Source: Candidatus Adlerbacteria bacterium GW2011_GWA1_54_10
GTDB lineage: Bacteria; Patescibacteriota; Minisyncoccia; Phycocordibacterales; SBAW01
NCBI GenBank assembly: GCA_001004665.1
Contig: LCRO01000003.1
Location: 63,984-127,983 of the forward strand
DNA length: 64,000 nucleotides
Reading direction: 5' to 3'
Position 1 is the stretch's first letter; each line of letters begins with the position of its first letter. This document shows, piece after piece, positions 1 to 59,742 of this stretch. A program made the translations under genes and the position numbers. The notes under the pieces are model-generated. The model saw only the letters and a program-made list of their open reading frames with translations. It was not told the origin of the DNA and did not search any database.

Positions 1-385
1 CCATCTACCAAACCAACCACATATTCTGGACTAAGATTTTTCATTGAGTGGGTCCTTTTTCTTTCGAATACTATGACCCAGCTGACTTCTGACGCTGCGT
101 CAGATTCATTATACCCCGATTTTCGGGGTAACAGCGTCAGATCTCCACAGGTTACGAGCACTTCTGTTCCAAACATCCACTGCGGGATTTTCTTAGTTCT
201 TCCCTACCCTCACCGCCCACTGGTAGGTCGAACGCCCTTTAGTTTGCAGAGGCTGCTTTTTGCGTCCGGGCCCTCCGGCACTACCCTCACGGATATATGC
301 TTGCCCTTTTGCTACGCCTCGACGACGAAATCGAGGGTACGGATTTTAACCGCATAGAAGTGCGCGCTGCTGTGCGCGTTTATTG
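1..385 (-). other. Non-canonical segment at 3' end of 16S: probable insertion/intron (3' exon would lie beyond window start)
   Basis: Sequence after the 1390-region block lacks the near-invariant GCCCGTCACACC decoding-centre and GGATCACCTCCTT anti-SD blocks; contains an inverted repeat ctgacgctg...cagcgtcag. Confidence 0.4.
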
Positions 386-1647
386 TGAGTACAAGACTTG
401 AGAACGTATTCACCGCGGTATAGCTGACCCGCGATTACTAGCGATTCCGGCTTCATGAGGGCGAGTTGCAGCCCTCAATCCGAGACATGCTGATCTGGCG
501 TCATCCCCACCTTCCTCCCCCGTGAGGGGGCAGTCTCGCCTGACATTTAAAACAGGCAACAGGGGTTGCGTTCGTTACCCCACTGAAGGGAACAGTTCAA
601 ACCACGAACTGACGACGACCATGCATCACCTGCCAAGCCGCCTTTCGGGGACTCTGGTTTCCCAAAGTTTTCGTCTTGGTTTCAAACCCTGGTGAGGTTC
701 TTCGTTTGTCATCGAATTGAGCCGCATGATCCACCGCTTGTGCAAGTCCCCGTCTATTCCTTTGAGTTTTAATCTTGCGATCGTACTACCCAGGCGCACG
801 ACTTAACGCGTTAGCTTCGCCTCGCAGAGGGTCGATACTCCGCAAAGCCAGTCGTGATCGTTTAGGGCTACGAATACCGGGGTATCTAATCCCGTTCTCT
901 CCCGTAGCTTTCGTGTTTCAGCGTCAGGAGCGCGCCAGCAAAGTGCCTTCGCATTTGGTGTTCCCCATGATATCAACGGATTTCACCCCTACACCATGAG
1001 TTCCCTTTGCCTCTCGCGTCCTCTTAAAGCCGTGCCGTTTCCGCCGCATTCCACGGGTTGAGCCCGCGGGCTTTTACGAACGGACTAACATGGCCGCCTA
1101 CACACCCTTTACGCCCAGTGATTCCGGATAATGCTCGGGGCCTCTGTATTACCGCTCCTGCTGGCACAGAGTTAGGAGCCCCTTATTCATGCGCTAACGT
1201 CAATTACTTCCTCACGCATAAAAGCTGTTTACGTCCCGAAGGACTTCGTCCAGCACGCGGCGTCGCATGGTCAGGCTTTCGCCCATTGCCAAATATTCTC
1301 GACTGCAGCCACCCGTAGGTGTATGGGCCGTGTCTCAGTCCCATCGGTGGGGGTCAGCCTCTCAGCTCCCCTAGGCGTCGTAGCCACGGTAGGCCGTTAC
1401 CCTACCGTCTAGCTGATGCCCCGCAGGCCGCTCAAAGAGCGCGTTGCCGCTTTACCCTTCGACTTGCGTCTCAGGGACTATCGGGAATTACCCAACCTTT
1501 CGGCTGGCTATGCCCGACTCTTCGGTGCGTACCTGCGTATTACTACCTCGTCTGCCGGTTTACTTCGGTCTTGCGACTTCAGCATCCCATGACTTGCATG
1601 CCTTATCCACGCCGCTAGCATTCATCCTGAGCTAGGATCAAACTCTG
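1..1647 (-). rRNA. rrs: 16S rRNA; 5' end AGAGTTTGATCC... at ~1647; canonical alignment traceable down to ~385 (E. coli ~1390), 3' terminal domain not recognisable in 1-385
   Basis: Reverse complement of conserved 16S blocks: ggatcaaactct (1636-1647), ttaccgc..ctgctggcac (~1150-1170, 515 region), ggggtatctaatcc (~875, 806 region), acgtattcaccgcgg..cgattactagcgattcc (~395-440, 1350-1390 region). Confidence 0.85.
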
Positions 1648-2105
1648 AATAATTGCGAAGCAATTATTCACCCTGAGGTTACTCGAAGGGTGAATACACC
1701 TCGCAACCTAACTCGATATGACCCCTCGATACCGCCTTGCGGCGGTCCTCGGGGTGCTCAATTTTGTTACCGCTTACGCGGACAAAATTGGCAACGGAAC
1801 AAGAGAAAGATGCACCAGCCTATGGCTGGCGAAACAACTAGTCTCTTGTTTAACTTACTTACTTTAGATCGGTGTGATCTAGAACTTTTTCCTCTCCCGC
1901 TGCTCGGGATCGGAAATTTTTATTCGCTGTTGTCAAAAAACAAACCGCCGTCGGCGGTGCTCTCAAGACCTTGAGATTTCACCGTTAAGCAGTCATGGGT
2001 TCCAGTATAGCCCCTCTGAAGCGGATGTCAATGAAAAAATAAGGGCCGCTTGCGGTTACAAGCGGCCCAAGTCCAGGGAGGAAACGCCCAGGGTGGGCAC
2101 CTTCA

Positions 2106-9909: not shown

Positions 9910-10020
9910 TTCTGGCGGCTACCTACTCTCGCTGTCTGTAACAACAACTACCATCGGCGCTAGCGGGCTTAACTTCCGTGTTCGGAATGAGAACGGGTGT
10001 GACCCCGCCGCCAAGCCACC
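9910..10020 (-). rRNA. rrf: 5S rRNA
   Basis: Reverse complement aligns with bacterial 5S: ...CCGAACACGGAAGTTAAGCCCGCTAGCGCCGATGGTAGT...AGCGAGAGTAGG... Confidence 0.85.
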
Positions 10021-10264
10021 AAAACAGAAGGTCCAAACTAACCCTTCGACAAAGCCTCAGGGGTAATTTTATAAAACAAAATCAACAACAGATTATTGCG
10101 ACTCTCAATCCATTTCCCCTCCATAAATTGCGAAGGGTTGCCCAAAAGGGGCCGGAACATCGATCGATTAGTATTCCTCGGCTCAATGCCTTGCGGCACG
10201 TACACCTAGAACCTATCAACGTGGTCATCTCCCACGGATCTTAATGATTCCTCATCTTGAAGTT

Positions 10265-10442: not shown

Positions 10443-11160
10443 CTATCGACTCGAAACGAATCAAGTCTTCCCACATTACTGTGGGGATTGGACTATACCT
10501 TCATCCCTAAATTAGGGAGACCGACGTGTAGTCTCTACGGGGTCAGCACTCGCTTAAGGCGCTTCTTTGAGTAATTTAACTCACCGAAACGATCTATCAT
10601 TTTCATCAACTTTTTGAACTCTCGTTCAGACTTTATAGTCTGTCGATACTCGAGAATCTCAAGCATTAGCTTTATTTGCTCCCGTTTTAGAACCGAATGT
10701 GGTTCTACAGCAATTAAAAATTCTTTAATTGCATCGGTCTTGCCAATAATGTATTCGATAACTCCGTCACTGCGCTCCCGGATATACCCGGACCCCACAA
10801 GACCACATAATTTTTCGAATAGCTTTTTAGCCTTTTGCGATTGAAAAAATACCACATACGGCGCAACCTGAAATCCATACTTATAGGTAGAATTAGGTTT
10901 GAGCCGCACATAAATACTTCCGTCGCCGTCTAAAAAGCCGGCAAGATATGCTTTGGTTGTTGACGAAAGCGGTTGCATGACTTCCCTCGGTATTATCCTA
11001 CCATACGACAGGTTAGGATTCCACCGATATAGTCGGTTTCTCACTGTGGATTACTCCTCAGTGCCGCCGTGAACATTCTTAACAGTGTGGTTCCAAACGT
11101 CACCACGTTTCCTCGCGGGTTCAGACAGTTCAAATTCCAAATTTCTTTAGGACCTGAACG
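10443..11160 (-). mobile_element. Group I-type intron in 23S rRNA domain V (E. coli ~2570-2595 region) carrying a homing endonuclease ORF
   Basis: 5' exon ends ...GCTGGGTTCAGAC (rc 11161-11173); 3' exon resumes ATGCGTGAGACAGGTTGGTCTCCTATC (rc 10416-10442). Intervening ~718 nt has no 23S homology and contains the LAGLIDADG ORF. Confidence 0.7.
10535..11044 (-). CDS. LAGLIDADG homing endonuclease (single-motif, I-CreI-like)
   Basis: [20 protein letters not shown]... motif; ~150-169 aa; likely start at MQPLSS (10978). Lies inside the 23S intron. Confidence 0.85.
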
Positions 11161-13312
11161 GTCTGAACCCAGCTCGCGTATCTTTTTAAATGGCGAACAG
11201 CCATACCCTTGGGAGCTTCTCCACCCCCGGGATAAGATGAGCCGACATCGAGGTGCTCTAATGCGGATGGTCGGTTCACTATGTCCTGCTTTCGCACCTG
11301 CTCGGCATTTACGCCTTGCAGTCAAGCTCCCTTTTGCCATTACGCTATCGGCACGGTTTCCATTCGCGCCTAGGGAACCTTAATGAACTCCTCCGTTACT
11401 TTTTAGGAGGATAGCGCCCCACTAAAACTGCCCACCAGATAATGTCTCGAACGCGTTTTGCGCGTCCGGTTAGTACATACAATTTTACAGAGTGGTATTT
11501 CACTGACGAGTCCGCGGCGCCCGAAAGCACCGCCTCAACCTCTCCCACCTATGCTACGCAACAAAGCCGCATGCACAATATCAAGCTACAGTAAAGCTTC
11601 TGGGGTCTTTTCGTCTAACTGCAGGTAACCGGCATCTTCACCGGTATTGTATTTTCACCGAGCGGTACTCCGAGACAGTTCCCCAGTCGTTACACTATTC
11701 GTGCGCGTCTGAACTTACCAGACAAGGAATTTCGCTTTTCGCTTCCTGTGGGCGAAGGACCATGTCTTCTTCCGTTCTGGAAGCACGGCGTATGGTCTCT
11801 TATGTGAGCCGCGTGTTTTTTAGGACCTTCTACATATTCCTATGTAGAGAAGTAGCTTTTTGTGTAACTTTTTCGCTATTTACCCGATTCTGTAATAGTC
11901 CTAGTCCTTCCCTGCTCGATTGCTCAAGCAGAGAACCTTAGGACGATTATAGTTATCGCCGACATTCACCAGGGCTTATATAGCTCGGCCCTCCAATCTT
12001 GCGATCAAAGGACGGGCCATATTTGACCTTCTGGCATTGGTCAAGTGTCACCTCCTATACATCCCCTTACGGGTTCGCAGGAAGCTGTGTTTTTGGTAAA
12101 CAGTCGCCAGGGATACTTTCGCTGCGGCCGCGCTCGCGCGCGGCAGGCCTTATTCCGAAGGTACGGCCGATTTTTTGCCGAGTTCCTTGGAGTACTCTCA
12201 CTCGTTCGCCTTGCTCTACTCGAGCTGCACACCTGTGTCGGTTTGCGGTACGGTCGTACGACCCATATAGTTTAGAAGTTTTTCTTGGAAGCCTCTTCGC
12301 AGTGGTCCTCTCAGGCGAACCTGAAAGTGCCCCGATGCTTCGACAGCGCAAAGCGGATTTTCCTGCCTTGCAAGTCTTCGGCTACGGACGCCAATCCAAT
12401 AAGGCGCCACTGTTTATGTGCTCCGTCCCTCCATCACTGAGTCGCCGGTGTGGGAATATTAACCCACTGTCCATTACCTGCGGCTTTCGCCATCGGCTTA
12501 GGACCGACTAACCCTACTCTGATCACCGTTGAGTAGGAAACCTTGTGCTTTCGGCGTGCGGGGATCTCACCCGCATTGCGGTTACTTGTGCCTGCATTCT
12601 CACTTCGCAACGCTCCACTGCGGCTCACGCCTTCAGCTTCATCGCGGATGCGAACGCTCTCTTACCACTCGTCCTTTGATTGCTCTCAGGACGAATCCTC
12701 AGTTTCGGTACTACGTTTTAGCCCCGATTATCTTCGGCGCGAGATCTCTCGATGAGTGAGCTGTTACGCTTTCTTTCAATGATGGCTGCTTCTAAGCCAA
12801 CATCCTCATTGTCTTCGAGACTTCACCTCCTTGTGATGCACTTAACGTAGATTTTGGGACCTTAACTTGAGATCTAGGACTCTTCTCCTTTTGTACGGTG
12901 GAGCTTAGCCCCCACGTACTAACTGCCGCATAACGCAAACGGTATTCGGAGTTTGATAGGATGAGCGAGCTTTCGCCCTGTCTCATCCTTCCAGTGCTCT
13001 ACCCCCGTCTGCCAATCAATGCGACGCCAGCCCAAAAGCTGTTTCAGAGAGAACCAGCTATTACAAGGTTCGATTAGCTTTTCACTCCAACCCACAAGTC
13101 ATCCGAGAGTTTTGAACGGCTCAACGGTTCGGGCCTCCGCGCTATTCACGCTCGCTTTCGCTACACCTCCGCCCTAGCGGGCTTAAGTCTATGCGGCATA
13201 CGGTAACTCGCAGGCTCATTCTTCAATAGGCACGCCGTCGAGGCTTCGATTACTCTCGGCCTCTTCGACTCTTTGTAGACATATGGTTTCAGATCTATTT
13301 CACTCCCCTTCC

Positions 13313-13358
<46 letters not shown>

Positions 13359-14061
13359 TTTGAAAGTATGTAGCCTTACCGGTTAGTTCCGGCAAATTCA
13401 CTCAAGCCATTCGTGTCTTGAGCTACTCAAGGACATTGCAGAAGTTGCTGCAGTTTCGCCTACGGGGCCTTCACCCTCTTGGGCCGCGCTTCCCAGCGCG
13501 TTCGGCTACCGCAGCAATTTGTAACTTCTTGGCCATTCGATTTCTCTCAGGCCTATCAATGCCTTATAACCCTGAAAATTTCCCGAACCCCTCGAACTAC
13601 CAAGGAGTTTGGGAAACTTTGCAGTTTGGGCTCACATTCGCGTTCGCTCGCCGCTACTGACGAAATACCTATTGGTCTCTTTTCCTCTCGGTACTGAGAT
13701 GTTTCACTTCCCGAGGTCTGCTCCCCGCATTACTGCGGGGTACTGGAGATTTCGCTCCAGTGAGTTTCCTCATTCGGACATCTCCGGATCGAAGGTTGCT
13801 TGGCACCTCCCCGGAGCGTATCGCCGCCACGCCGCGTCCTTCATCGCCTTTCAAAGCCAAGGCATCCACCATACGCCCTTATTAGTTCCAACCTCTTTTG
13901 GGAGATTGAGAACCGCAATAATCTGTTGTTTATAAGCAGAAATGCTGCGCATTTCTGCCAATACATTTGTTACCTACCCACCTCCATAGCGCACAAAAAG
14001 ACCCACACGAAGTGCGCCGCGTGGTGGAATTTAGTTGTTAAGGTACAAGATACGCGAGAAC

Positions 14062-43530: not shown

Positions 43531-44088
43531 TTACAGCCCCGTCATTTGCAGGGACTCGTTGATGGTGCGCACCAGGAGCGAGCGGGACTCAATCGCTTTG
43601 GCGGAGAGCTCGATGGAAAAGCCTCCTTCTATAAAAGGCGCGAGCGCCTGCGTATGGGGCAGATAGCCCAGAGCAAATAGTATGCGCAATACCAAAACGC
43701 ACTCGATCGCCTCGGCATGGGGCTCTTTCGTCGCTGCGAGGGCGCGCAGGCCTTCGGAAACCTCGTCGAATAACTGCGGGTTTTTTTCTTCCCCGTGCAC
43801 GAGGCGCAATAAAAGTTGTGCAATCCGGCCCGACTGCGCCGAGAGTCCGAGCGGTCGGATGCCATGCGCCTCCGTGACGCGCCACTCGTGCCTTCCGCGT
43901 ATCAGGCAAAATCGCGCAGAAGTCAGAGGCTCGAGCCCATAGCGCAGTTTTGATGCTTCCGCGCGCGCGGCGCGCGCACTCGCTACCACAAGCCCGAACT
44001 CGCGTGTCAATATCGCAACGCGCAAGTTCGCCTCTCCTACGCCGCGCTTGCGCAGGACAATTCCGTCAGTTGCCGTTTTTTCGTACAT
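43531..44088 (-). CDS. recO: DNA repair protein RecO (short)
   Basis: 185 aa; N-terminal OB-fold region (TDGIVLRKRGVGEANLRVAILTREFG), overlaps ileS 3' end by 23 nt. Confidence 0.65.
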   Translation of the reverse strand: MYEKTATDGIVLRKRGVGEANLRVAILTREFGLVVASARAARAEASKLRYGLEPLTSARFCLIRGRHEWRVTEAHGIRPLGLSAQSGRIAQLLLRLVHGEEKNPQLFDEVSEGLRALAATKEPHAEAIECVLVLRILFALGYLPHTQALAPFIEGGFSIELSAKAIESRSLLVRTINESLQMTGL

Positions 44089-47000
44089 ACTTCAAATCTT
44101 TGAGGCCGGTAAGTAGCATGATTTTATCTCGGTACTTATTCGCCACTACCATCTCTTCTTCGGTAACTGCAAGCGTGCATTCTGGCTTGTCGGCGATTTT
44201 ATATCCTTTTTCCTTGCGCCACTCCTGCACGCGGCGGACAAGCTCGCGCACGACGCCCTCCTCGCGCAACTGCGGCGTGATGAACGTATCGAGCACCGCC
44301 TCCCCATCGACTCGAGCGACTTCTTTCACGTTAAGCTCGTCGGCAAGAATCGCCCGCAGTTGCGGATTTTCCGGCAACACAGGAGCGGTAAATTTCGCGA
44401 GCGGCTGCCTGACCTTGATGCCCGCCCTCTCACGCAGCTGAAGACCCTCCGACGCCGCTTTGTGTATCTGCTCCATTTCCCTCAAAATATTCTCGTCGAT
44501 CTGCAGGGGTTCCGGCCAATCAGAAAGATGCACGCTTTCCGGATCGTTCTTGCTCTTTACGCTCCGATATAAATCCTCGGCGAAGAACGGCATAACGGGA
44601 GCCATAACGTGCGCCGCAGTATAGAGGACAAAGCGCAATGTAGAGACGGCCCGCGCATCGCCATTTTTGAACCGCTCGCGCGAGCGGCGCACGTACCACG
44701 CCGAAAGGTCGTCAATGAATTTTCCGAGTGGCCGCACCGCCGCATCCAATTCGTACTTTTCGAATCCTTCGGTCGCATCGCGCACCAGCTCGCCTAGGCG
44801 CGAGAGAATCCATTTGTCGAGTATATGCAAAGGAGAAACTTCCTGAAGAAAATGCTCTGGTTGAGGCGAAGCCGACCCGAGGACATTTTCGGAAGGAAGC
44901 TTCTCCGAAGCATACAACTTGTAAAAACTTCGGACATTGTCGATGCGCATGAGCAATTTCTTCGACACCTCGTCCACACCGCGCTCGTTAAAACGCAAGT
45001 CCTCCGCGCGCACGACGCCGGAGGAAAGAAGATAGTATCGCAGGGCGTCCGCGCCGTACTTGGCCACGACCTCCATGGGGTCGGGATAATTTTTGAGCCG
45101 CTTACTCATCTTTTGGCCGTCCGAGGCAAGCACGAGGCCATTGACTATCACTTTTTTATACGGACTCCGTCCGAAGAGCGCGACGCCGAGCACTATCAGT
45201 GAGTAAAACCACCCGCGCGTCTGGTCGAGCCCCTCGGCGATAAAGTCCGCCGGATAGCCCTTAGCCCCAAAGCGAAGAAAGCGTTCCGGGTCAAAATTCT
45301 TTTTCTCGAACGGGTAGTGATTGCTCGCGAAAGGCATCGAGCCCGACTCAAACCAGCAGTCAAACACCTCCGGCACGCGCTGCCACTGACCGTGTATGCC
45401 GTTGCCCATCGGCACCTCGTCTATGTACGGACGGTGCAGGTCGAGCTCATAGTTTTGATTATGAGGAAAGGGGACAAATGGAATTTCCTGCAACTCGGCG
45501 GTCTTAAGCATAACTTCTTCATCAAAATCAAAACTGCCGGACAACTTTCGGGCCGCGACTTTCTGAAGGATCCAGATCGGCAAGCCGTGTGAAATAATAA
45601 GAATGTTTTTGTTCGTGTAGCGCCGCTCCGCCTCAAACAAAAACTCACCCATACGCCTGCGCACTGCCAAAATATCGGATTCATTGAGCTCGTGCAGGCG
45701 CTTGTCAATCATCACCGCAGAATCCGGAAGCCCCAGCTCCTTTTGCACTACCGCCGCCGTCTCGCGCGTGCGCAAAAACGGAGAGACGATAATAAGATCG
45801 ACATTCTCGTGCTTGAGTTCCGAAGCAGCCCGCACAGATTCTGCTTTCCCAGTTTCGGTCAAATGATTTTCCGGGTCGCCGCGCGGGTCGGGTACGTTGT
45901 TCGCATTGTTCACTGCCTCCCCGTGCCGCATCACAAAGTAGCGGTTGCCGGAGCGGCGGACCATAGAAAGCAGTTCCTCTATCGAGCCGATGATCTTTAT
46001 CTCTTTAGTTTTGGAGTGTCGCCATACGGGAAGCGGCGCGCCCCAATAGCGGCTGCGCGATATAGCCCAGTCCGGCGCGCTCTCTATTCCCTTGTGGAAG
46101 CGACCCTTGCCGACATTCTCCGGCACCCATGCGATTTTCGCGTTCTCCTTGAGTAGCTTGTTTTTTAAAGCCGACACTTTTACGAACCACGAGCTGGCCG
46201 CAGAGTTGAGTAGCGGCGTGTCGCATCGCCAGCAGTGCGGGTAGGAGTGCGTTGTTTTTTCTTTCTTGAAGAGCAATCCTTTTTGTTCGAGGAGCGCCGC
46301 GACCTTCTCGTCCGTTTCGCGCGGACTCCCCTTCGGCTTTACGGGCAGGCCCGCAAGATCTTTTACCGCAAGCACGAATTTTCCCTCCTCGGTTATATGC
46401 CTTATAAGCGGAACCTTCTCCCTTTGCCCGAGTGCAAGGTCATCCGCGCCGAATGCCGGAGCGATGTGCACGATGCCCGTACCCTCGCCGAGCGACACAA
46501 AGTCGGCGCCATACACGCGCCATATTTTATTATTTTTGGAGAATTCGCCTGCGAAATAGTCGAACGGCGGCAAATATTTTTTGCCGATAAGCTCTTTACC
46601 TTTATATTCCGCAACAACTGATTTTTCCGGAGCAAGTTCTCTTGCAACAATAATGAACTCGTTTCCAGTTTTTACTTTCACATATATAGCGCTCGGATTG
46701 ACTGCCACAGCGGCATTGCCCGGAAGCGTCCATGCGGTCGTGGTCCAGATCAACAAAGAGGTACTGGGATCGTCCGCCAATTGGAATTTTACCGTAACGG
46801 CCAAATCCTCGATATCTTTGTATCCCTGCGCGACCTCGAAGTTGGACAGCGTCGTGCCGCAACGCGGACAATAGTGCATCGCCTTGAAGCCCTCGTAAAT
46901 TAATCCGCGGCCGTGAAGATATTTGAATGCCCACCATACCGACTCGGTGTAGGAGGTGTCCATTGTCTTGTAGGAGTTCTCCATGTCGGCAAAGCGGCCC

Positions 47001-47392
47001 ACGCGCGGAATGGCCCCGCGCCACTCCATTTCGTCCTTCATGATATGGGCACGCGCCGCCTCGTTGAACGAGGCCAGGCCGTACTCCTCAATGTCGCGCT
47101 TCTGCCTGAACCCGAGCTCTTTTTCCACCAAATTCTCGACCGGAAGCCCGTGGCAGTCCCATCCCCACCGCCTTTGTACGCGCCAGCCGCGCATCGTGCG
47201 ATAGCGCGGAATGGCGTCTTTTATGGTCGATGCCAAAATGTGCCCGTAGTGCGGGGATCCACTGGCGAAGGGCGGCCCGTCATAGAACACATACTCGCCG
47301 CGCGGCGACTTTTTATCCAGCGACTTCTCGAAAATCTTTTCCTTGTTCCAAAATTCGAGTATTTCCTCCTCCCGCTTCGGCAGATCCGACAT
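44066..47392 (-). CDS. ileS: Isoleucyl-tRNA synthetase with an embedded histidine-phosphatase-like domain
   Basis: 1108 aa; PHYGH (HIGH), CP1 editing domain, KMSKR. Residues ~483-640 carry RHGE...SHG histidine-phosphatase motifs. Confidence 0.9.
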   Translation of the reverse strand: MSDLPKREEEILEFWNKEKIFEKSLDKKSPRGEYVFYDGPPFASGSPHYGHILASTIKDAIPRYRTMRGWRVQRRWGWDCHGLPVENLVEKELGFRQKRDIEEYGLASFNEAARAHIMKDEMEWRGAIPRVGRFADMENSYKTMDTSYTESVWWAFKYLHGRGLIYEGFKAMHYCPRCGTTLSNFEVAQGYKDIEDLAVTVKFQLADDPSTSLLIWTTTAWTLPGNAAVAVNPSAIYVKVKTGNEFIIVARELAPEKSVVAEYKGKELIGKKYLPPFDYFAGEFSKNNKIWRVYGADFVSLGEGTGIVHIAPAFGADDLALGQREKVPLIRHITEEGKFVLAVKDLAGLPVKPKGSPRETDEKVAALLEQKGLLFKKEKTTHSYPHCWRCDTPLLNSAASSWFVKVSALKNKLLKENAKIAWVPENVGKGRFHKGIESAPDWAISRSRYWGAPLPVWRHSKTKEIKIIGSIEELLSMVRRSGNRYFVMRHGEAVNNANNVPDPRGDPENHLTETGKAESVRAASELKHENVDLIIVSPFLRTRETAAVVQKELGLPDSAVMIDKRLHELNESDILAVRRRMGEFLFEAERRYTNKNILIISHGLPIWILQKVAARKLSGSFDFDEEVMLKTAELQEIPFVPFPHNQNYELDLHRPYIDEVPMGNGIHGQWQRVPEVFDCWFESGSMPFASNHYPFEKKNFDPERFLRFGAKGYPADFIAEGLDQTRGWFYSLIVLGVALFGRSPYKKVIVNGLVLASDGQKMSKRLKNYPDPMEVVAKYGADALRYYLLSSGVVRAEDLRFNERGVDEVSKKLLMRIDNVRSFYKLYASEKLPSENVLGSASPQPEHFLQEVSPLHILDKWILSRLGELVRDATEGFEKYELDAAVRPLGKFIDDLSAWYVRRSRERFKNGDARAVSTLRFVLYTAAHVMAPVMPFFAEDLYRSVKSKNDPESVHLSDWPEPLQIDENILREMEQIHKAASEGLQLRERAGIKVRQPLAKFTAPVLPENPQLRAILADELNVKEVARVDGEAVLDTFITPQLREEGVVRELVRRVQEWRKEKGYKIADKPECTLAVTEEEMVVANKYRDKIMLLTGLKDLKYVRKNGN

Positions 47393-47416: not shown

Positions 47417-48994
47417 TTACATTTCTTCCGGCACGGGGATGCCGAGGGCATCGAGCCCCTCGTGTAAGGCGCGCTCGGCGGCTGTCGCAAGGAACACGCC
47501 CATTTGCGGATTCTCGCCGCCGATGACGCGCTCGCGCGCGTACCAACTATTAAAAACCCCCGCCAACTCCGTTAAATAAGTAGTAAGGTAATGCGGCTCC
47601 ATCTCGCGCGCCGCGCGCGCGAGCGCGTCGGGGTAGTGCACTAAAAGGCGCTCGAGTGGGCCGATAGGGGTCGGTTGGACTTGACCTAGCGGCCTGGAGC
47701 GCCATCTATCTTCGGCCTCCGTCCCGAAAGCAGCAATTCCGTGCTTAGCCGCTTCACGCAAAAGCGAGGCGGCGCGGACGCGCGCGTACTGCAGGTAGGG
47801 ACCCGAGTCGCCCTCGAGCGAGAGCGATTTTTCCGGATCAAAAATAATGTCCCTCCCACTGCCCTGTCGCAGAACTGCATATTTTATAGCGCCAACGGCT
47901 ACGTCCATTCTTCCGCGCGCGCGCTCCTTAAGCTCTTCGAGCAACGACTCACCCGTTATTACGTTGCCTTTGCGCGAGGACATCTTACCTTCCGCAAACC
48001 TCATCATCCCGTGCGAAACATGTCTGAATTGGCCCTTCCATTCCGGATGCACGCGCTCGAGCGCCTCGAGCACGACGCGGAAGTACGCATCCTGCTCGTT
48101 TGCCGTAACTGTTATAGACTGATCGAATTTCGCCTTTTCTTTTTTCATCTCCGCCAGCCCCAGATCCTTCGCTTCATACGTCGGGAGTCCCCATTTGGTC
48201 ACGAACACGCGCGTGTGCTCGCCGCGAAATACAACGGCTCCTTCGCTCTCCTCAAAAATCTCCGGATGTCTTTTAACAATCTCCAACCCGCGCCGACCCG
48301 TCTCGCTCTCGAAAAAGTAGTAATCAAATTTCGTTCCGAGTTTTTTATAAATCTCCTCAAAATGCTCGAGTGACTCCTTGCGCCCCGCGTCATACAGCGC
48401 ACTTATCTGCGGATCGCCTACCTCCGCAGGCGGGCTTATTTTGTAAATTTTTTTGTTAAGCTCGTCTATTTCGTCTTTATGTACTTCGTATTCCCGTGCA
48501 CCGTAGGCATAAGCCTCGCCCCAACCAAGATCCGGCTTTTGCAGTTTGCCCCAAATGGCTTTGGCCACATGGGGACCCACGTCGCCCTGATAGTTGGCGC
48601 GTATCACCCGAGCCCCGGACCTTTCGAGCAGTCGCGCTATTGCCTCGCCTATCGCATTACTCATCAAGTGCCCGATGTGAAACTCCTTGAAGGGATTGGG
48701 GTCGGTATACTCGACCATTATTTTTTTGCCGGTATGGAACGGCTCGATTTGCGTATCCTGGATTTTCTTTAAAATAGCCTCGCGCGAAAGAAAAAAGTTG
48801 ATGAACTTTCCTGCGGCTTCTATCCGCTCGACACCTTCTACCTTGAGTTTGTCCGCAAGCTTTCGAGCATCAGTTTTGGCAATCAGTGCGGCATTGGTCG
48901 AATAATCACCATGCGCCATCCGCGCGGGCCTCTCGACGGAAAACGGCATCTCAATTCCTGCCGCTTTAACAGCCTCCTCTATCCTTTTCCTCAT
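47417..48994 (-). CDS. argS: Arginyl-tRNA synthetase
   Basis: Start trimmed to MRKRIEEAVKAAG (526 aa); HIGH-like EFHIGH, MSSRKG (KMSKS-like), DALR anticodon-binding domain. Confidence 0.85.
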   Translation of the reverse strand: MRKRIEEAVKAAGIEMPFSVERPARMAHGDYSTNAALIAKTDARKLADKLKVEGVERIEAAGKFINFFLSREAILKKIQDTQIEPFHTGKKIMVEYTDPNPFKEFHIGHLMSNAIGEAIARLLERSGARVIRANYQGDVGPHVAKAIWGKLQKPDLGWGEAYAYGAREYEVHKDEIDELNKKIYKISPPAEVGDPQISALYDAGRKESLEHFEEIYKKLGTKFDYYFFESETGRRGLEIVKRHPEIFEESEGAVVFRGEHTRVFVTKWGLPTYEAKDLGLAEMKKEKAKFDQSITVTANEQDAYFRVVLEALERVHPEWKGQFRHVSHGMMRFAEGKMSSRKGNVITGESLLEELKERARGRMDVAVGAIKYAVLRQGSGRDIIFDPEKSLSLEGDSGPYLQYARVRAASLLREAAKHGIAAFGTEAEDRWRSRPLGQVQPTPIGPLERLLVHYPDALARAAREMEPHYLTTYLTELAGVFNSWYARERVIGGENPQMGVFLATAAERALHEGLDALGIPVPEEM

Positions 48995-49011
48995 TCCCAA
49001 AAGAGTAGCAT

Positions 49012-50088
49012 TTACAGTACTGTTTGAGAAAGCTCGGGCGCCACGTTTTCGACAACGGTAAAACCGGCGCGGCCGATGAGAGCGCCCTGCGCCGTCTCTA
49101 CATTGCAGCGCCACCGGCCGGGCTCGAGATTCGATTTGACCGAAAAACCGCGATATCCTTCCGCGCGGCCACCCGATATAGGGAAAGAGACCAGCGAGCG
49201 AGTATCCCATTTTGACCCCGTCATGTATTCCCAACGATGATAGATGGGGGTCATGAGGTCCGCTGGAGCGAACACGGACGAATAGCAAAAAGCGCTTTTC
49301 CCCTCCGCGAGAGTGTAAAAACCGCTCGTAGAGCGCCAAAATTCGGACCAGCGCGGCGCCTCATAAAGCGCCACATAGGCGCCGTCGGCGCGCCGCAGGA
49401 GCGAGTGATATATTCCGCTCTCCCTCAAAGACAGCGGGACCGGCGGAATGATATTGAGAAAATACAGCAGATTGAAGACGACAAAAACGGTCCCGACCAC
49501 GTACGCCGCCGAGGCGGAGCGCGTACTATTGCGGCGGAAAACGAAAAAGTGCATCAGCGCCAAAAATAATCCTATTATAGCCAGGCTCGCGAGTCCGGAG
49601 AGCAAAAAAGTTCCGATGCCTACGGTGTGCGTAAAGAATGTCGGAACCGCTATGATGCAATAGCTAAGGAGCAGGAAATAAAACACGGCGACATTGAAGC
49701 GTAGCTGCGCGTAACGCGTCTTGAGGAACTCGTTGCCGACGAGCATCGCCGCGAGCGCACCAAGGAAAAGCGCGCTCCCGGCGAGTGTGCCCGAGCGGCC
49801 GTAGAGCACAAGCAAATTCGACGCCAAACCGCCGAAGAACACCTGTAGTGCAAAAAGCAGGAAGAGCGGCTCCGCGGAGTGCTGCGCCTCCAGCCGCCGC
49901 ATTTCGCGGCGGTTAAGGATAATTATAAGAAACCCGGCGGCAAGGAGATAAAAAAGAAGGAGCAGGTTATTGGGGATCGAGTCGGGCCTGTCGGCGATGA
50001 CGATGTCGAGCAAAAAGCCGACGAGCAAGCCGGCCGCCGAAATATGCCGCTCGTATCTCCCCCACAGCGCTACCCACACATTGACCAT
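49012..50088 (-). CDS. Polytopic membrane protein with C-terminal soluble domain, unknown function
   Basis: 358 aa; 7-8 TM helices. Confidence 0.4.
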   Translation of the reverse strand: MVNVWVALWGRYERHISAAGLLVGFLLDIVIADRPDSIPNNLLLLFYLLAAGFLIIILNRREMRRLEAQHSAEPLFLLFALQVFFGGLASNLLVLYGRSGTLAGSALFLGALAAMLVGNEFLKTRYAQLRFNVAVFYFLLLSYCIIAVPTFFTHTVGIGTFLLSGLASLAIIGLFLALMHFFVFRRNSTRSASAAYVVGTVFVVFNLLYFLNIIPPVPLSLRESGIYHSLLRRADGAYVALYEAPRWSEFWRSTSGFYTLAEGKSAFCYSSVFAPADLMTPIYHRWEYMTGSKWDTRSLVSFPISGGRAEGYRGFSVKSNLEPGRWRCNVETAQGALIGRAGFTVVENVAPELSQTVL

Positions 50089-58171: not shown

Positions 58172-58172
58172 G

Positions 58173-58245
58173 GGCGATCGCCGGGAATCGAACCCGGATT
58201 GAGAGCTCCACAAGCTCCAGTGTTGACCGTTACACCACGATCGCC
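58173..58245 (-). tRNA. tRNA-His (anticodon GTG), genome-encoded G-1
   Basis: rc: G|GCGATCG..GGAGC-TTGTGGA-GCTCT..CCGGG-TTCGATT-CCCGG-CGATCGC-C; G-1 pairs with discriminator C73. Confidence 0.8.
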
Positions 58246-58267
58246 ATACAAATATTCTACTACCAAG

Positions 58268-58351
58268 TGCCCAGGGGGAGATTCGAACTCCCATGCCCTT
58301 GCGGGCGCTACCACCTCAAGGTAGTACGTCTACCAATTTCGCCACCTGGGC
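58268..58351 (-). tRNA. tRNA-Leu (anticodon GAG), long variable arm
   Basis: rc: GCCCAGG-TG-GCGAAATTGGTAGACGT-A-CTACC-TTGAGGT-GGTAG-(15-nt arm)-GGGAG-TTCGAAT-CTCCC-CCTGGGC-A. Confidence 0.8.
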
Positions 58352-58363
58352 ATTGAAACGAAA

Positions 58364-58834
58364 TTATTCTACCGCAATCTCTACTTTTTGTGGAGCCTCG
58401 GGCTCCGAAGATTTTTCTTCCGCAGTTTCCGCACTGCCGATCTGCATCTGCCGGCGCATGGCGTGCTTAATCTCGCTCGCGGCTTTGCGGCGGATAAAGT
58501 AAAGTTTGGCGCGCCGCACCCGCGCGCGGCGCAATATTTCTATGGAATCTACTATCGGCGAATAGAGAGGAAATATTTTCTCAACCCCCACCCCGCTCGC
58601 GACCCGCCGCACGGTAAAAGTCGCTCCGGCTTCCGTGCCGTGTTTGACCGCAAGCACCATACCTTCGAAAGCCTGTCTGCGCACGTTGCGGGTAGTGACC
58701 TCTTTTTTGTTGGCCGCCTTGCCTATCTTCAGCTCCTCTATCTTTTGCCATACGCGCACGGTGTTTCCTGCGCGAATGCCGAGCTTCCTGCGCGCATCCA
58801 TATCAACAGGCGAAATTTTGACTGCGGATTTCAT
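58364..58834 (-). CDS. rplS: 50S ribosomal protein L19 with C-terminal extension
   Basis: Start trimmed to MKSAVKISPV; RRQAFEGMVLAVKHG...FTVRRVASGVGVEKIFPLYSPIVDSIEI.RRARVRRAKLYFIR. Confidence 0.85.
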   Translation of the reverse strand: MKSAVKISPVDMDARRKLGIRAGNTVRVWQKIEELKIGKAANKKEVTTRNVRRQAFEGMVLAVKHGTEAGATFTVRRVASGVGVEKIFPLYSPIVDSIEILRRARVRRAKLYFIRRKAASEIKHAMRRQMQIGSAETAEEKSSEPEAPQKVEIAVE

Positions 58835-58901
58835 GCCGGCGCAGTTTAACACAATCGATAAAGCGAAGCAAAAGTTCTTTGTGGAGGAGTTGGGGTCGTG
58901 T

Positions 58902-59570
58902 TTATCTCTCCGGAGCAAAGAACTTTTGCGAAGCGCTTAAAAAATCCTGCGGGAGCTGGGCTTCGAAATACATCCCCTTGCCGTTTGGGTGTTTGAGGCG
59001 CAGCGAGAGCGCGTGGAGGGCGAGCCGATTAAACCCGAGGAGCATCGGTCGGCCCGGCGCGTAAAGTTTGTCGCACAAAATAGGGTGCTGAATCGCGGCA
59101 AAATGCACGCGTATTTGGTGCGTCCGGCCGGTCTTTGGGAAAATCTCCACATACGCCGCGCCCTCCGTGTTTTTAATAAGCCTATACATAGTAACCGCAT
59201 CGCGGACAGTGCCGTACGGCGTACGCGCGCTACGCGGCCCGAGGCCGCCGCGCGCAGACCCTATGGGCTTGTCTATTATGCCGCGCTCGTCTTTAAGATT
59301 GCCGTATACAAAGGCGCGATAAACTTTCTGCACTTCCCTGTTCTTGAATTGTTTTTTTAAAAACTCGAATGCATTTTGCGTGCGCGCGACCGCCAAGACG
59401 CCGCTCGTCTCCCTGTCGATGCGGTGCACGATATGGAATTCCGGATATTTTTTGCGCAACCAATCAGTCAGGGTTTCGCGCTCGGCGTGCCTGTCCTCGA
59501 TCACCTGCAACCCAGAGGGCTTGTCGACGACGATTAATTCGCTATCCTCGTATAAGATTTTCGGTTCCAT
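58902..59570 (-). CDS. RluA-family pseudouridine synthase (no S4 domain)
   Basis: 222 aa; HRIDRETSGVLAVAR catalytic Asp motif, TGRTHQIRVH. Confidence 0.85.
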   Translation of the reverse strand: MEPKILYEDSELIVVDKPSGLQVIEDRHAERETLTDWLRKKYPEFHIVHRIDRETSGVLAVARTQNAFEFLKKQFKNREVQKVYRAFVYGNLKDERGIIDKPIGSARGGLGPRSARTPYGTVRDAVTMYRLIKNTEGAAYVEIFPKTGRTHQIRVHFAAIQHPILCDKLYAPGRPMLLGFNRLALHALSLRLKHPNGKGMYFEAQLPQDFLSASQKFFAPER

Positions 59571-59594
59571 GTTTACATTGAGCTCTTCGAAGTG

Positions 59595-59667
59595 TGCACC
59601 CTCCAGGATTCGGACCTGGGACCTTCGCAGTGTAAATGCGCTGCTCTACCAACTGAGCTAAGGGTGC
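59595..59667 (-). tRNA. tRNA-Val (anticodon TAC); T-loop reads TCCGAAT (C at position 55)
   Basis: rc: GCACCCT-TA-GCTCAGTTGGTAGAGC-A-GCGCA-TTTACAC-TGCGA-AGGTC-CCAGG-TCCGAAT-CCTGG-AGGGTGC-A. Confidence 0.7.
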
Positions 59668-59670
59668 ATG

Positions 59671-59742
59671 CGCCCTCGGGAGGATTCGAACCTCCAAGAT
59701 CGGGATAGAAGCCCGACAGTTTGTCCATTAGCTTACGAGGGC
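59671..59742 (-). tRNA. tRNA-Arg (anticodon TCT)
   Basis: rc: GCCCTCG-TA-AGCTAATGGACAAACT-G-TCGGG-CTTCTAT-CCCGA-TCTT-GGAGG-TTCGAAT-CCTCC-CGAGGGC-G. Confidence 0.7.

What the first reader, a model, noticed from the sequence alone, without database searches (positions are those of the whole stretch)
45473..45946. Isoleucyl-tRNA synthetase with an internal ~160-residue histidine-phosphatase (PGAM-like) domain
Seen in sequence: between the conserved ...ISRSRYWGAPLPVW block and the ...DLHRPYIDEV block, canonical IleRS has only a short (~60-80 aa) zinc-knuckle region. Here a ~210-aa insert contains RYFVMRHGEAVNN (RHG catalytic-His motif), a central ...SPFLRTRETA... and NILIISHGLPIWIL (SHG-like second His motif). 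These are the hallmark motifs of branch-1 histidine phosphatases (established family knowledge). The rest of IleRS (HIGH, CP1 editing domain, KMSKR, anticodon-binding) is intact, so this is a genuine in-frame insertion, not a fusion artefact at a gene boundary. A phosphatase embedded in an aaRS is not a standard architecture. It could act on aminoacyl-adenylate/tRNA 2',3'-cyclic-phosphate-type substrates or be a regulatory moonlighting domain.
Basis: partly seen in the sequence, partly recalled or inferred. Interest (0 to 1): 0.65.

Follow-up and report, generated by a model that had tools for sequence, protein, structure and literature searches.

The report
Isoleucyl-tRNA synthetase with built-in phosphatase
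In a large group of tiny uncultured (Parcubacteria/CPR) bacteria, the enzyme that loads isoleucine onto tRNA carries a complete, apparently active histidine phosphatase spliced into its middle; in sister lineages the same phosphatase is a separate gene right next to the synthetase gene, which points to an unrecognised partner activity whose substrate is unknown.

Summary

It is not an assembly artefact. All 120 best homologues carry the domain, and so do the 80 best genome loci out of 410 species genomes with a relative.

New here: in sister lineages the closest HP is a separate ~190-aa gene between argS and an insert-free ileS (41 of 46 informative loci), with the same neighbours as in the window. 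The insertion lies in the variable CP3 subdomain, inside the second zinc knuckle, whose cysteines were lost later. Other variants have 2-4 HP copies, further insertion sites, an ArgRS-HP fusion and a Sua5-HP fusion. The catalytic residues are complete in 413 of 418 unique domains, including every complete extra copy.

Best reading: an active phosphatase that works physically coupled to IleRS. The substrate is unknown. My guess is a macromolecule held by the synthetase, such as a blocking terminal phosphate on tRNA. I found no description in the searchable literature. It is a new variant of a known kind; interest is about 0.68.

The parts
44066..47392 (-). ileS: complete type-2 isoleucyl-tRNA synthetase ORF (1108 aa plus stop) carrying the inserted phosphatase domain
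   Evidence: ORF list. TIGR00392 scores 847.9 bits against a cutoff of 621.4. PF00133, PF08264 and PF19302 all match. The sequence is identical to KKW35816.1 of Candidatus Adlerbacteria.
46022..47392 (-). IleRS aa 1-457: first Rossmann half (HYGH 48-51), CP core with the first zinc knuckle (C175/C178/C387/C390), the CP1 editing domain, CP2 and the CP2-3 linker ISRSRYWGAPLPVW
   Evidence: Motif positions. Invariant columns include H48, G50, H51, C175, C178, C387, C390, W216-T218 and G304-T305-G306..H309. Domain naming follows PMC7191050 and PMC7955072.
45944..46021 (-). aa 458-483: N-terminal remnant of CP3 and the linker into the phosphatase (RHSKTKEIKIIGSIEELLSMVRRSGN). The former CxxC of the second zinc knuckle is replaced by R-H-S-K-T-K.
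   Evidence: Alignment with insert-free IleRSs that read 'PIWVCDKCGNKKIVSSIKEL' at this place. R458, K461, T462 and K463 are nearly invariant among insert-bearing homologues.
45473..45943 (-). aa 484-640: inserted branch-1 histidine phosphatase domain. It is the short-cap form, with 26 aa between E568 and K595.
45920..45928 (-). R489-H490-G491: the RHG motif, with the nucleophilic histidine
   Evidence: R is present in 418/418 and H in 417/418 unique domains, and in 121/121 of the closest homologues.
45770..45772 (-). R541: second phosphate-binding arginine (in SPFLRTRETA)
   Evidence: Present in 418/418 unique domains.
45689..45691 (-). E568: putative general acid (in RLHE)
   Evidence: 374 E plus 43 D out of 418. 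The role is assigned by analogy with dPGM/PhoE (family knowledge).
45587..45589 (-). H602: second catalytic histidine (in IISHG)
   Evidence: Present in 415/418 unique domains.
45443..45472 (-). aa 641-650: C-terminal linker PFPHNQNYEL, leading back into CP3
   Evidence: P643, H644, N645 and L650 are (nearly) invariant. A related motif occurs in most of the embedded examples inspected.
44813..45442 (-). aa 651-860: rest of CP3 (DLHRPYIDEV..., second CxxC lost), second Rossmann half, KMSKR 761-765 and the stem-contact fold
44069..44812 (-). aa 861-1108: anticodon-binding domain and the type-2 C-terminal domain (DUF5915)
   Evidence: PF08264 at aa 859-999 and PF19302 at aa 1033-1095.
47417..49339 (-). 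argS (ArgRS), immediately upstream, 24 nt from ileS. In sister lineages the standalone phosphatase gene sits exactly in this gap. The real start is probably about 110 codons inside the listed ORF.
   Evidence: PF03485, PF00750 and PF05746, with the N-domain starting at aa 117. Synteny is shown.
43531..44088 (-). recO-like gene, overlapping the ileS 3' end by 23 nt. It is part of the conserved argS-(HP)-ileS-recO-DUF11/CLIPPER cluster.
   Evidence: PF11967 and PF02565. The same order is seen in L001, L003, L004 and in 22+ metagenome loci.

Best explanation
The gene encodes a bifunctional enzyme. It is a complete type-2 isoleucyl-tRNA synthetase (aminoacylation plus CP1 editing) with a whole branch-1 histidine phosphatase (HP) inserted into its peripheral CP3 subdomain.

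Shown here:
- The HP domain is a full, confidently folded member of the superfamily with all catalytic residues.
- The insertion is fixed across a large part of the Parcubacteria group.
- Its closest standalone relatives are ~190-aa genes wedged between argS and an insert-free ileS, 1-8 nt from the ileS start or overlapping it in the four loci inspected, in the same gene cluster.
- The two states (neighbour gene or internal domain) were never found together within the flanks examined.
- The same HP subfamily has been tethered to IleRS repeatedly: 2-4 copies, at least three other insertion sites, and once to ArgRS and once to Sua5. Catalytic residues are kept in every complete copy.

Inferred:
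- The HP is an active phosphomonoesterase that works as a physical partner of IleRS, first as a separate subunit-like protein and later covalently tethered at CP3.
- Tethering helps most with large, slowly diffusing substrates. The tether geometry is loose. The window's subclade has also trimmed the substrate-shaping cap to SixA size. For these reasons I think the substrate is a macromolecule held by the synthetase.
- My best single guess (about 0.25-0.3) is a terminal 3'(2')-phosphate or pyrophosphate on tRNA that blocks charging, so the HP would 'heal' the acceptor end before aminoacylation.

The general statement (active phosphatase functionally coupled to IleRS) carries the confidence given. 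The substrate assignment is speculative.
For: Identity of the two parts.

Clade-wide occurrence: all 120 best homologues (57-100% identity) carry PF00300. 410 species-representative genomes encode a relative, and all 80 loci examined have the HP in frame inside IleRS.

Catalytic conservation: R489 and H490 121/121, R541 121/121, E568 116 E plus 5 D, H602 120/121. The full pentad is present in 413 of 418 unique domains, and every complete copy in multi-copy or odd architectures is intact.

Genomic coupling: standalone HP genes P0026, P0034, P0027 and P0038 lie directly between argS and an insert-free ileS in 4 of 4 look-ups. In a metagenome scan, 41 of 46 informative standalone copies are directly followed by ileS, and 48 of 54 are directly preceded by argS. 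The window has the same neighbours: argS, recO and a DUF11 protein. No second HP ORF was found in the 81 insert-bearing loci.

Repeated tethering: the architecture table shows HP-HP arrays, sites between CP1 and CP2, inside and after the second catalytic half, ArgRS-HP and Sua5-HP, and no simple N-terminal HP-IleRS fusion. At least 3 state changes occur on the IleRS core tree in all 200 bootstraps.

Site: CP3 is an exposed, structurally variable subdomain next to the CP2-3 linker that lines the tRNA A76 pocket, and it is a protein-docking surface in human IARS1.

Cap trimming in the window's subclade: 25-29 aa against 52-57 aa in the other homologues; the standalone forms also carry the extra segment.
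Against: There is no biochemical data, and no substrate can be read from the sequence.

The nearest solved structures are all small-molecule phosphatases (HFP, PhoE, PspA, CobC, GpgP), and the ancestral and standalone forms keep a full cap. That fits a small substrate.

The HP domain evolves faster than the synthetase core (53% against 73-75% identity to the window protein).

No process is known that would constitutively produce phosphate-blocked tRNA(Ile) in these organisms. A tRNA-end function would also not obviously be isoleucine-specific.

About 10% of standalone copies are not next to ileS.

The multiple-event inference rests on NJ trees only.
Confidence: 0.55

Rival explanations
1. Small-molecule phosphatase. 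The HP hydrolyses a diffusible phosphorylated metabolite or nucleotide, for example a by-product or relative of the adenylation reaction such as PPi, NDPs or p4A, or an unrelated housekeeping substrate. It is linked to ileS for co-expression and stoichiometry, and the fusion adds nothing mechanistically.
Against: Tethering gives little kinetic benefit for fast-diffusing small molecules. Yet the domain was captured internally several times, in up to four copies, and never by the easiest route of stop-codon loss giving an N-terminal fusion. The window's subclade deleted the cap that normally shapes small-substrate pockets but kept the catalytic residues.
Confidence: 0.25
2. Protein phosphatase acting on the synthetase itself, or on another translation protein. 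A SixA/PGAM5-like activity would reverse an inhibitory phosphorylation, for example by a HipA-type kinase toxin or a regulatory kinase acting on the KMSKS-loop serine, as a built-in antidote or regulator.
Against: No kinase partner was seen in the conserved cluster. No aaRS-targeting kinase is known for IleRS. The SixA equivalog cutoff is not met (44.9 against 74.5 bits). There is no match to defence-system models. Universal conservation across hundreds of species is more than an antidote to a sporadic toxin would predict.
Confidence: 0.12
3. Neutral passenger or structural filler. The neighbouring gene was copied into permissive loops of a large, insertion-tolerant protein by local rearrangement. 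The domain now merely replaces the lost zinc knuckle as a scaffold, or does nothing for IleRS.
For: CP3 is structurally plastic. IleRSs related to this one tolerate other in-frame insertions, such as the Y1 transposase and GNAT in P0309. The zinc-knuckle cysteines are lost in the window's type. The source gene lies only about 1.4 kb away from the insertion site.
Against: The catalytic pentad is intact in 413 of 418 domains and in every complete redundant copy, so there is no sign of decay. Some hosts keep the zinc knuckle together with the insert, so the insert did not arise as its replacement. The standalone and embedded states are mutually exclusive, which indicates that one functional copy is needed.
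Confidence: 0.07
4. Assembly or annotation artefact: a chimeric contig or a frameshift joining two genes.
For: None found. Many database entries for relatives are fragments.
Against: An identical 1108-aa protein is present on 13 contigs from several sources. The same in-frame architecture occurs in all 120 best homologues and in 80 of 80 genome loci. There is no composition break that sets the insert apart from the rest of the gene.
Confidence: 0.01

Closest known systems
Type-2 (eukaryote-like) bacterial isoleucyl-tRNA synthetase (TIGR00392; PF00133 + PF08264 + DUF5915)
   Same: It has the full set of IleRS hallmarks: HIGH (HYGH), KMSKR, CP core zinc knuckle, CP1 editing motifs, anticodon-binding domain and type-2 C-terminal domain. 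It scores above the equivalog cutoff.
   Different: It carries a net ~167-aa enzymatic domain inside CP3 and has lost the second (CP3) zinc knuckle that its insert-free relatives keep.
Branch-1 histidine phosphatases of ~160-210 aa: SixA, PhoE, PspA, CobC, HFP, GpgP (PF00300)
   Different: Identity to any characterised member is only 18-26%. It is below the cutoffs of all NCBIfam equivalogs (SixA 44.9 against 74.5; dPGM_arch 42.9 against 225; PspA 36 against 350). It is embedded in, or encoded next to, an aaRS. The substrate is unknown.
IleRS with an extra GNAT domain (NCBIfam NF040702, ileS_w_GNAT)
   Same: This is a precedent for an IleRS that carries an additional catalytic domain. One relative (P0309) combines the HP insert with a GNAT domain.
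   Different: The window protein has no GNAT domain and scores 307 bits against a cutoff of 1999. The accessory chemistry is different.
Other bifunctional proteins with a histidine-phosphatase domain joined to a nucleic-acid or nucleotide enzyme: Rv2228c RNase H/acid phosphatase (NF005567), MutT1/Rv2985 Nudix-HP, TFIIIC tau55
   Same: They join an HP domain to an enzyme or factor that handles nucleotides, RNA or tRNA genes (hits).
   Different: In those proteins the domains are joined end to end (own knowledge, not checked here), whereas here the HP sits inside a catalytic domain. None of them involves an aaRS.
Free-standing or appended aaRS partner modules (trans-editing factors AlaX/YbaK, Trbp111/EMAPII tRNA-binding domains)
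   Same: The evolutionary pattern is the same: one module is found either as a separate gene or fused to the synthetase (family knowledge). A tRNA_bind gene follows ileS in L168.
   Different: Those modules bind tRNA or deacylate it. None is a phosphatase, and as far as I know they are joined at the termini rather than inserted in CP3.

Membership tests
Isoleucyl-tRNA synthetase (class Ia, TIGR00392) | Whole-protein score above the curated equivalog cutoff | tested here: met
   847.9 bits against a cutoff of 621.4.
Isoleucyl-tRNA synthetase (class Ia, TIGR00392) | HIGH and KMSKS signature motifs | tested here: met
   HYGH at 48-51 and KMSKR at 761-765. H48, G50, H51, K761, M762, S763 and K764 are invariant in 55 homologues.
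Isoleucyl-tRNA synthetase (class Ia, TIGR00392) | CP1 editing domain with the threonine-rich and GTG-VH motifs | tested here: met
   WTTTAWTLPGN (216-226) and GEGTGIVHIAPAFGADD are present and invariant.
Isoleucyl-tRNA synthetase (class Ia, TIGR00392) | Anticodon-binding domain and type-2 C-terminal domain | tested here: met
   PF08264 at 5.7e-30 and PF19302 at 5.5e-14.
Isoleucyl-tRNA synthetase (class Ia, TIGR00392) | Isoleucine-specific aminoacylation of tRNA(Ile) | not testable with these tools
   This needs an enzyme assay.
Histidine phosphatase superfamily, branch 1 (PF00300) | Profile score above the Pfam gathering threshold | tested here: met
   69 bits against 21.7, E=5.5e-19.
Histidine phosphatase superfamily, branch 1 (PF00300) | RHG motif with the nucleophilic His, plus two Arg, a second His and an acidic residue | tested here: met
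   R489, H490, R541, E568 and H602 are all present. The set is complete in 413 of 418 unique domains.
Histidine phosphatase superfamily, branch 1 (PF00300) | Alpha/beta PGAM-like fold | tested here: met
Histidine phosphatase superfamily, branch 1 (PF00300) | Phosphomonoesterase or mutase activity through a phosphohistidine intermediate | not testable with these tools
   This needs biochemistry.
SixA phosphohistidine phosphatase (TIGR00249) | Score above the equivalog cutoff | tested here: not met
Cofactor-dependent phosphoglycerate mutase (NF038349, NF002339 and related) | Score above the equivalog cutoff; full cap and C-terminal tail | tested here: not met
   42.9 bits against 225 and 22.3 against 316. 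The cap region is reduced to 26 aa.
Mupirocin-resistance IleRS MupA/MupB (NF000257/NF000258) | Score above the exception-model cutoff | tested here: not met
   645-675 bits against a cutoff of 1900. This is only the general type-2 IleRS similarity.
ileS_w_GNAT (NF040702) | Score above the cutoff; a GNAT domain is present | tested here: not met
   307 bits against 1999, and no acetyltransferase Pfam hit.
Known anti-phage defence systems (PADLOC) | Any model match for the HP domain or its standalone relatives | tested here: not met
   No hits for the window domain or P0026. There is one marginal, unrelated hit for P0164.

The most novel reading that the evidence does not exclude
The phosphatase is a third catalytic site of the synthetase that acts on the tRNA itself. 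It would remove a blocking 3'(2')-terminal phosphate or pyrophosphate (from nuclease damage or from tRNA-pyrophosphorylating toxins) so that the same enzyme can then charge the tRNA. This would be a built-in tRNA repair step, captured by IleRS several independent times in CPR bacteria, and the first aaRS known to carry a phosphatase activity.
Probability: 0.22. Interest if true: 0.88.

Novelty: new variant of a known kind. Interest (0 to 1): 0.68.

Why it matters
Aminoacyl-tRNA synthetases are among the best-studied enzymes, and I know of none with a phosphatase module.

Here one phosphatase subfamily is tied to IleRS in hundreds of uncultured Parcubacteria species. It occurs either as an abutting upstream gene or as one to four internal domains, and its catalytic residues are kept throughout. 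That pattern is the classic signature of a functional partnership, and it implies a step in tRNA charging, or in its protection or regulation, that is not part of the textbook scheme.

It also gives a rare natural series of neighbour gene, internal domain insertion and multi-copy arrays for studying how enzymes acquire inserted domains. It marks CP3 of class Ia synthetases as a docking and insertion hotspot.

The protein has been deposited publicly and is annotated only as 'isoleucine-tRNA ligase' or 'class I tRNA ligase family protein'. The hypothesis is directly testable with recombinant protein.

Tried and rejected
1. Chimeric assembly or frameshift artefact: rejected, because the architecture recurs in all homologues and loci examined and the identical protein is on 13 contigs.

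2. Split ileS (an N-half gene plus an HP-C-half gene) as an evolutionary intermediate: the 13 'HP-IleMid-IleC' representatives start at arbitrary positions. The two with plausible N-termini are artefacts: L167 has a run of N that shifts the frame, and L168 is cut by the contig end with the frame open upstream.

3. N-terminal HP-IleRS fusion, the easiest fusion from the neighbour arrangement: none among 150 representatives or 160 loci.

4. True phosphoglycerate mutase, SixA, PspA or CobC orthology: all are below the curated cutoffs.

5. Defence-system membership: no PADLOC match.

6. Literature: seven searches found no description. They combined IleRS, tRNA synthetase or tRNA with histidine phosphatase, phosphoglycerate mutase, His_Phos_1, CPR or Parcubacteria; the CP3 search served a different purpose.

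7. Single insertion event: not supported by NJ trees with parsimony. At least 3 changes occur in all 200 bootstraps. I do not regard this as settled, because the method is distance-based, composition bias is possible, and a shared C-linker motif hints at common ancestry.

8. Using the full-length AF2 model to place the HP relative to the active sites: the model is too poor in the core (pTM 0.53), and coordinates were not retrievable.

9. The first insert-only database search returned only fragments of 376 aa or less. That looked at first like split genes, but it turned out to be partial or frameshifted gene calls.
Full report
**What is in the window.** The finding lies inside a single long ORF on the minus strand, 44066-47392, encoding 1108 aa. 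The whole protein is an isoleucyl-tRNA synthetase by curated criteria: TIGR00392 scores 847.9 bits against a cutoff of 621.4, and PF00133, PF08264 and the type-2 C-terminal DUF5915 all match. HYGH, KMSKR, the CP-core zinc knuckle and the CP1 editing motifs are present and invariant among homologues. Embedded in it is a significant His_Phos_1 match (PF00300, 69 bits against 21.7, E=5.5e-19). The exact protein is in public databases as KKW35816.1 and others, from Candidatus Adlerbacteria bacterium GW2011_GWA1_54_10 (Parcubacteria group of the Patescibacteria/CPR). It is annotated only as isoleucine-tRNA ligase.

**Not an artefact, and not rare.** All 120 best full-length homologues (57-100% identity, 969-1240 aa) carry PF00300 together with the IleRS domains. 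Their names are Adlerbacteria, Nomurabacteria, Kaiserbacteria, Paceibacterota and Minisyncoccia. A scan of one genome per GTDB species with a single peptide pattern found 410 genomes encoding a relative. In all 80 loci fetched, the phosphatase is in frame inside IleRS. An exhaustive profile search of 1.84 billion cluster representatives gave 359 representatives at E<=1e-30. GC content varies gradually along the gene, with no break that sets the insert apart.

**Where exactly it sits.** Insert-free relatives have, between ...PIW and DLH..., a 26-residue stretch flanked by CxxC...CxxC, the second zinc knuckle. The window protein has 193 residues there, a net insertion of about 167 aa, and all four cysteines are gone. 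Published IleRS structures name this region the CP3 subdomain. It follows the CP2-3 linker (...SRNRYWG) that lines the tRNA-A76/reveromycin pocket. It has a different topology in each solved IleRS, with a zinc motif only in Thermus, and in human IARS1 it is the docking surface for LARS1 (PMC7191050, PMC7955072, PMC13439101). Some insert-bearing IleRSs still keep the zinc knuckle (L096, L100, L129, L148, L034). So the cysteine loss came after the insertion and did not cause it.

**The key new observation: the same phosphatase is the upstream neighbour of ileS in sister lineages.**
- The closest standalone relatives of the insert (186-198 aa, 33-36% identical to it) were looked up on their contigs. 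In 4 of 4 cases the gene lies directly between argS and an insert-free ileS of 934-988 aa. It is 1-8 nt from the ileS start, or overlaps it by 4 nt. It is followed by recO and a CLIPPER/DUF11 protein.
- The window has the same cluster, argS-ileS-recO-DUF11 protein, with only 24 nt between argS and ileS.
- A metagenome scan led by a standalone member gave 54 standalone and 26 embedded copies among the best 80 loci. Of 46 standalone copies with enough downstream sequence, 41 are directly followed by ileS on the same strand, and 48 of 54 are directly preceded by argS.
- None of the 81 insert-bearing loci has a second HP ORF within the flanks held. The two states therefore look like alternatives.

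**Repeated and varied tethering.** Among the top 150 representatives, classified with local HMMs and Pfam, I found the following.
- IleRSs with two tandem HP domains at the CP3 site (P0250, P0263, P0305).
- One protein with four HP stretches, one of them between CP1 and CP2 (P0163).
- A second HP just before the anticodon-binding domain (P0194, P0256, P0311) or inside the second catalytic half (P0236).
- An ArgRS-HP C-terminal fusion in a cluster from which ileS is absent (P0177, L085).
- A Sua5/YrdC-HP fusion (P0198).
- An IleRS combining a Y1-transposase-like insert, an HP and a GNAT domain (P0309).
- No N-terminal HP-IleRS fusion, although that would be the simplest product of the neighbour arrangement.
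- Every complete HP copy in these proteins keeps the catalytic residues.

On NJ trees of 95 loci, the standalone or embedded state is strongly clustered (4 changes on the IleRS core tree, against about 26 for shuffled labels) but is not a single transition: at least 3 changes in all 200 bootstraps. I treat 'several independent captures' as likely but unproven. The method is distance-based, and most of the embedded examples inspected share a C-terminal linker motif.

**Interpretation.**
- Shown: the identity of both parts, their conservation, the genomic alternation, and the multiplicity of tethering.
- Inferred: the HP is an active phosphatase whose function depends on being with IleRS.

The reasons for that inference are these. 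Conserved abutting gene order, followed by repeated covalent capture, is the usual signature of physically interacting partners. Redundant copies do not decay. The easy but possibly disruptive N-terminal fusion is avoided in favour of surface subdomains.

What it dephosphorylates cannot be read from sequence. Covalent tethering mainly helps with large, slowly diffusing substrates. The tether geometry is loose. The window's subclade has deleted about 30 aa of the substrate-shaping cap (25-29 against 52-57 aa) while keeping catalysis. For these reasons I favour a macromolecular substrate bound by the synthetase. Because the partners seen (IleRS, ArgRS, Sua5) share tRNA as well as ATP/PPi chemistry, my best single guess is a terminal phosphate or pyrophosphate on tRNA that blocks charging (probability about 0.25).

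The main rival (about 0.25) is a small-molecule phosphatase. It is supported by the nearest folds all being small-molecule enzymes and by the full cap in the ancestral forms. A cis-acting protein phosphatase (about 0.12) and a neutral or structural passenger (about 0.07) are less likely. An artefact is excluded.

**Comparison with what is known.** The host is an ordinary type-2 IleRS, and the guest is an ordinary-looking branch-1 histidine phosphatase. The combination is what is unusual. Seven full-text searches found no description of it. NCBI's rule set recognises an IleRS-with-GNAT family (NF040702) but nothing for this architecture. Database names for relatives are 'class I tRNA ligase family protein' or 'histidine phosphatase family protein, partial'. 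I therefore class it as a new variant of a known kind: an aaRS with an accessory domain, here a catalytic phosphatase inserted in CP3. It is visible in precomputed domain tables but is apparently undescribed and of unknown function.

**Limits.** There is no biochemistry. The trees are NJ only. Genome-wide co-occurrence (with ppa, kinases or RNA-repair genes, for example) could not be examined, because only flanks of the loci were available.

Noticed in passing
window 338-1653(-), 9910-10023(-), 11117-13892(-): The rRNA genes are unlinked and in an unusual order on the minus strand: 23S, 5S, then about 8 kb of ordinary genes (FtsW/RodA, a sugar transferase, FolD, SecF, an AAA-type kinase-like ORF), then 16S. 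The 16S match spans the whole model in only 1316 nt.
   Followed up: partly
window 10535-11044(-): A LAGLIDADG homing-endonuclease ORF (PF00961, 3e-11) lies between the 3' end of the 23S match and the 5S gene. It may be the remnant of an rRNA intron or insertion, as is common in CPR.
   Followed up: no
window 2028-2105(-): An Rfam suhB/mmgR sRNA match (62 bits against a gathering score of 41) lies upstream of the 16S gene on its strand. This is unexpected outside Alphaproteobacteria. It may be a conserved rRNA-leader element or a false family assignment.
   Followed up: no
P0309 (1066 aa; no window coordinates): An IleRS relative carries an IS200-like Y1 transposase domain in frame inside CP1 (aa 340-461), plus the HP insert (680-854) and a GNAT domain (935-1063). 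IleRS related to this one seems unusually tolerant of whole-domain insertions.
   Followed up: no
P0163, P0250, P0194, P0256, P0236, P0311 (no window coordinates): These IleRSs have 2-4 HP domains and additional insertion sites: between CP1 and CP2, inside the second catalytic half, and just before the anticodon-binding domain. All complete copies are catalytically intact.
   Followed up: partly
L085 6001-8070; L086 977-2140: There is an ArgRS-HP C-terminal fusion in a cluster where ileS is missing and recO follows directly. There is also a Sua5/YrdC-HP fusion on a short contig.
   Followed up: partly
L002 5001-6179: Two tandem standalone HP genes (197 and 193 aa) precede an insert-free ileS. 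An Mrr-type restriction endonuclease gene and small ORFs are inserted between argS and the HP pair.
   Followed up: no
L168 2102-2422: A free-standing tRNA_bind (PF01588, Trbp111-like) gene overlaps the end of an HP-bearing ileS. It is another possible IleRS accessory protein.
   Followed up: no
window 47417-49339(-): The mechanically listed ArgRS ORF starts at a TTG about 110 codons upstream of the first Pfam domain, and the extension is Arg/Gly/Ser-rich. The real start is probably the Met just before residue 117 (MRKRIEEAVK...).
   Followed up: no
L026, L057 and many 'uncultured Candidatus Saccharibacteria' loci (L007-L010 and others): Some record titles ('Candidatus Nitrosotenuis', 'Flavobacteriaceae', and many 'uncultured Candidatus Saccharibacteria') sit oddly beside the Parcubacteria-group names of most other loci carrying this IleRS. 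This suggests bin contamination or generic labelling.
   Followed up: no
window 58172-59742(-): There are two tRNA pairs, His(GTG)-Leu(GAG) and Val(TAC)-Arg(TCT). No tRNA-Ile gene is in the window.
   Followed up: no
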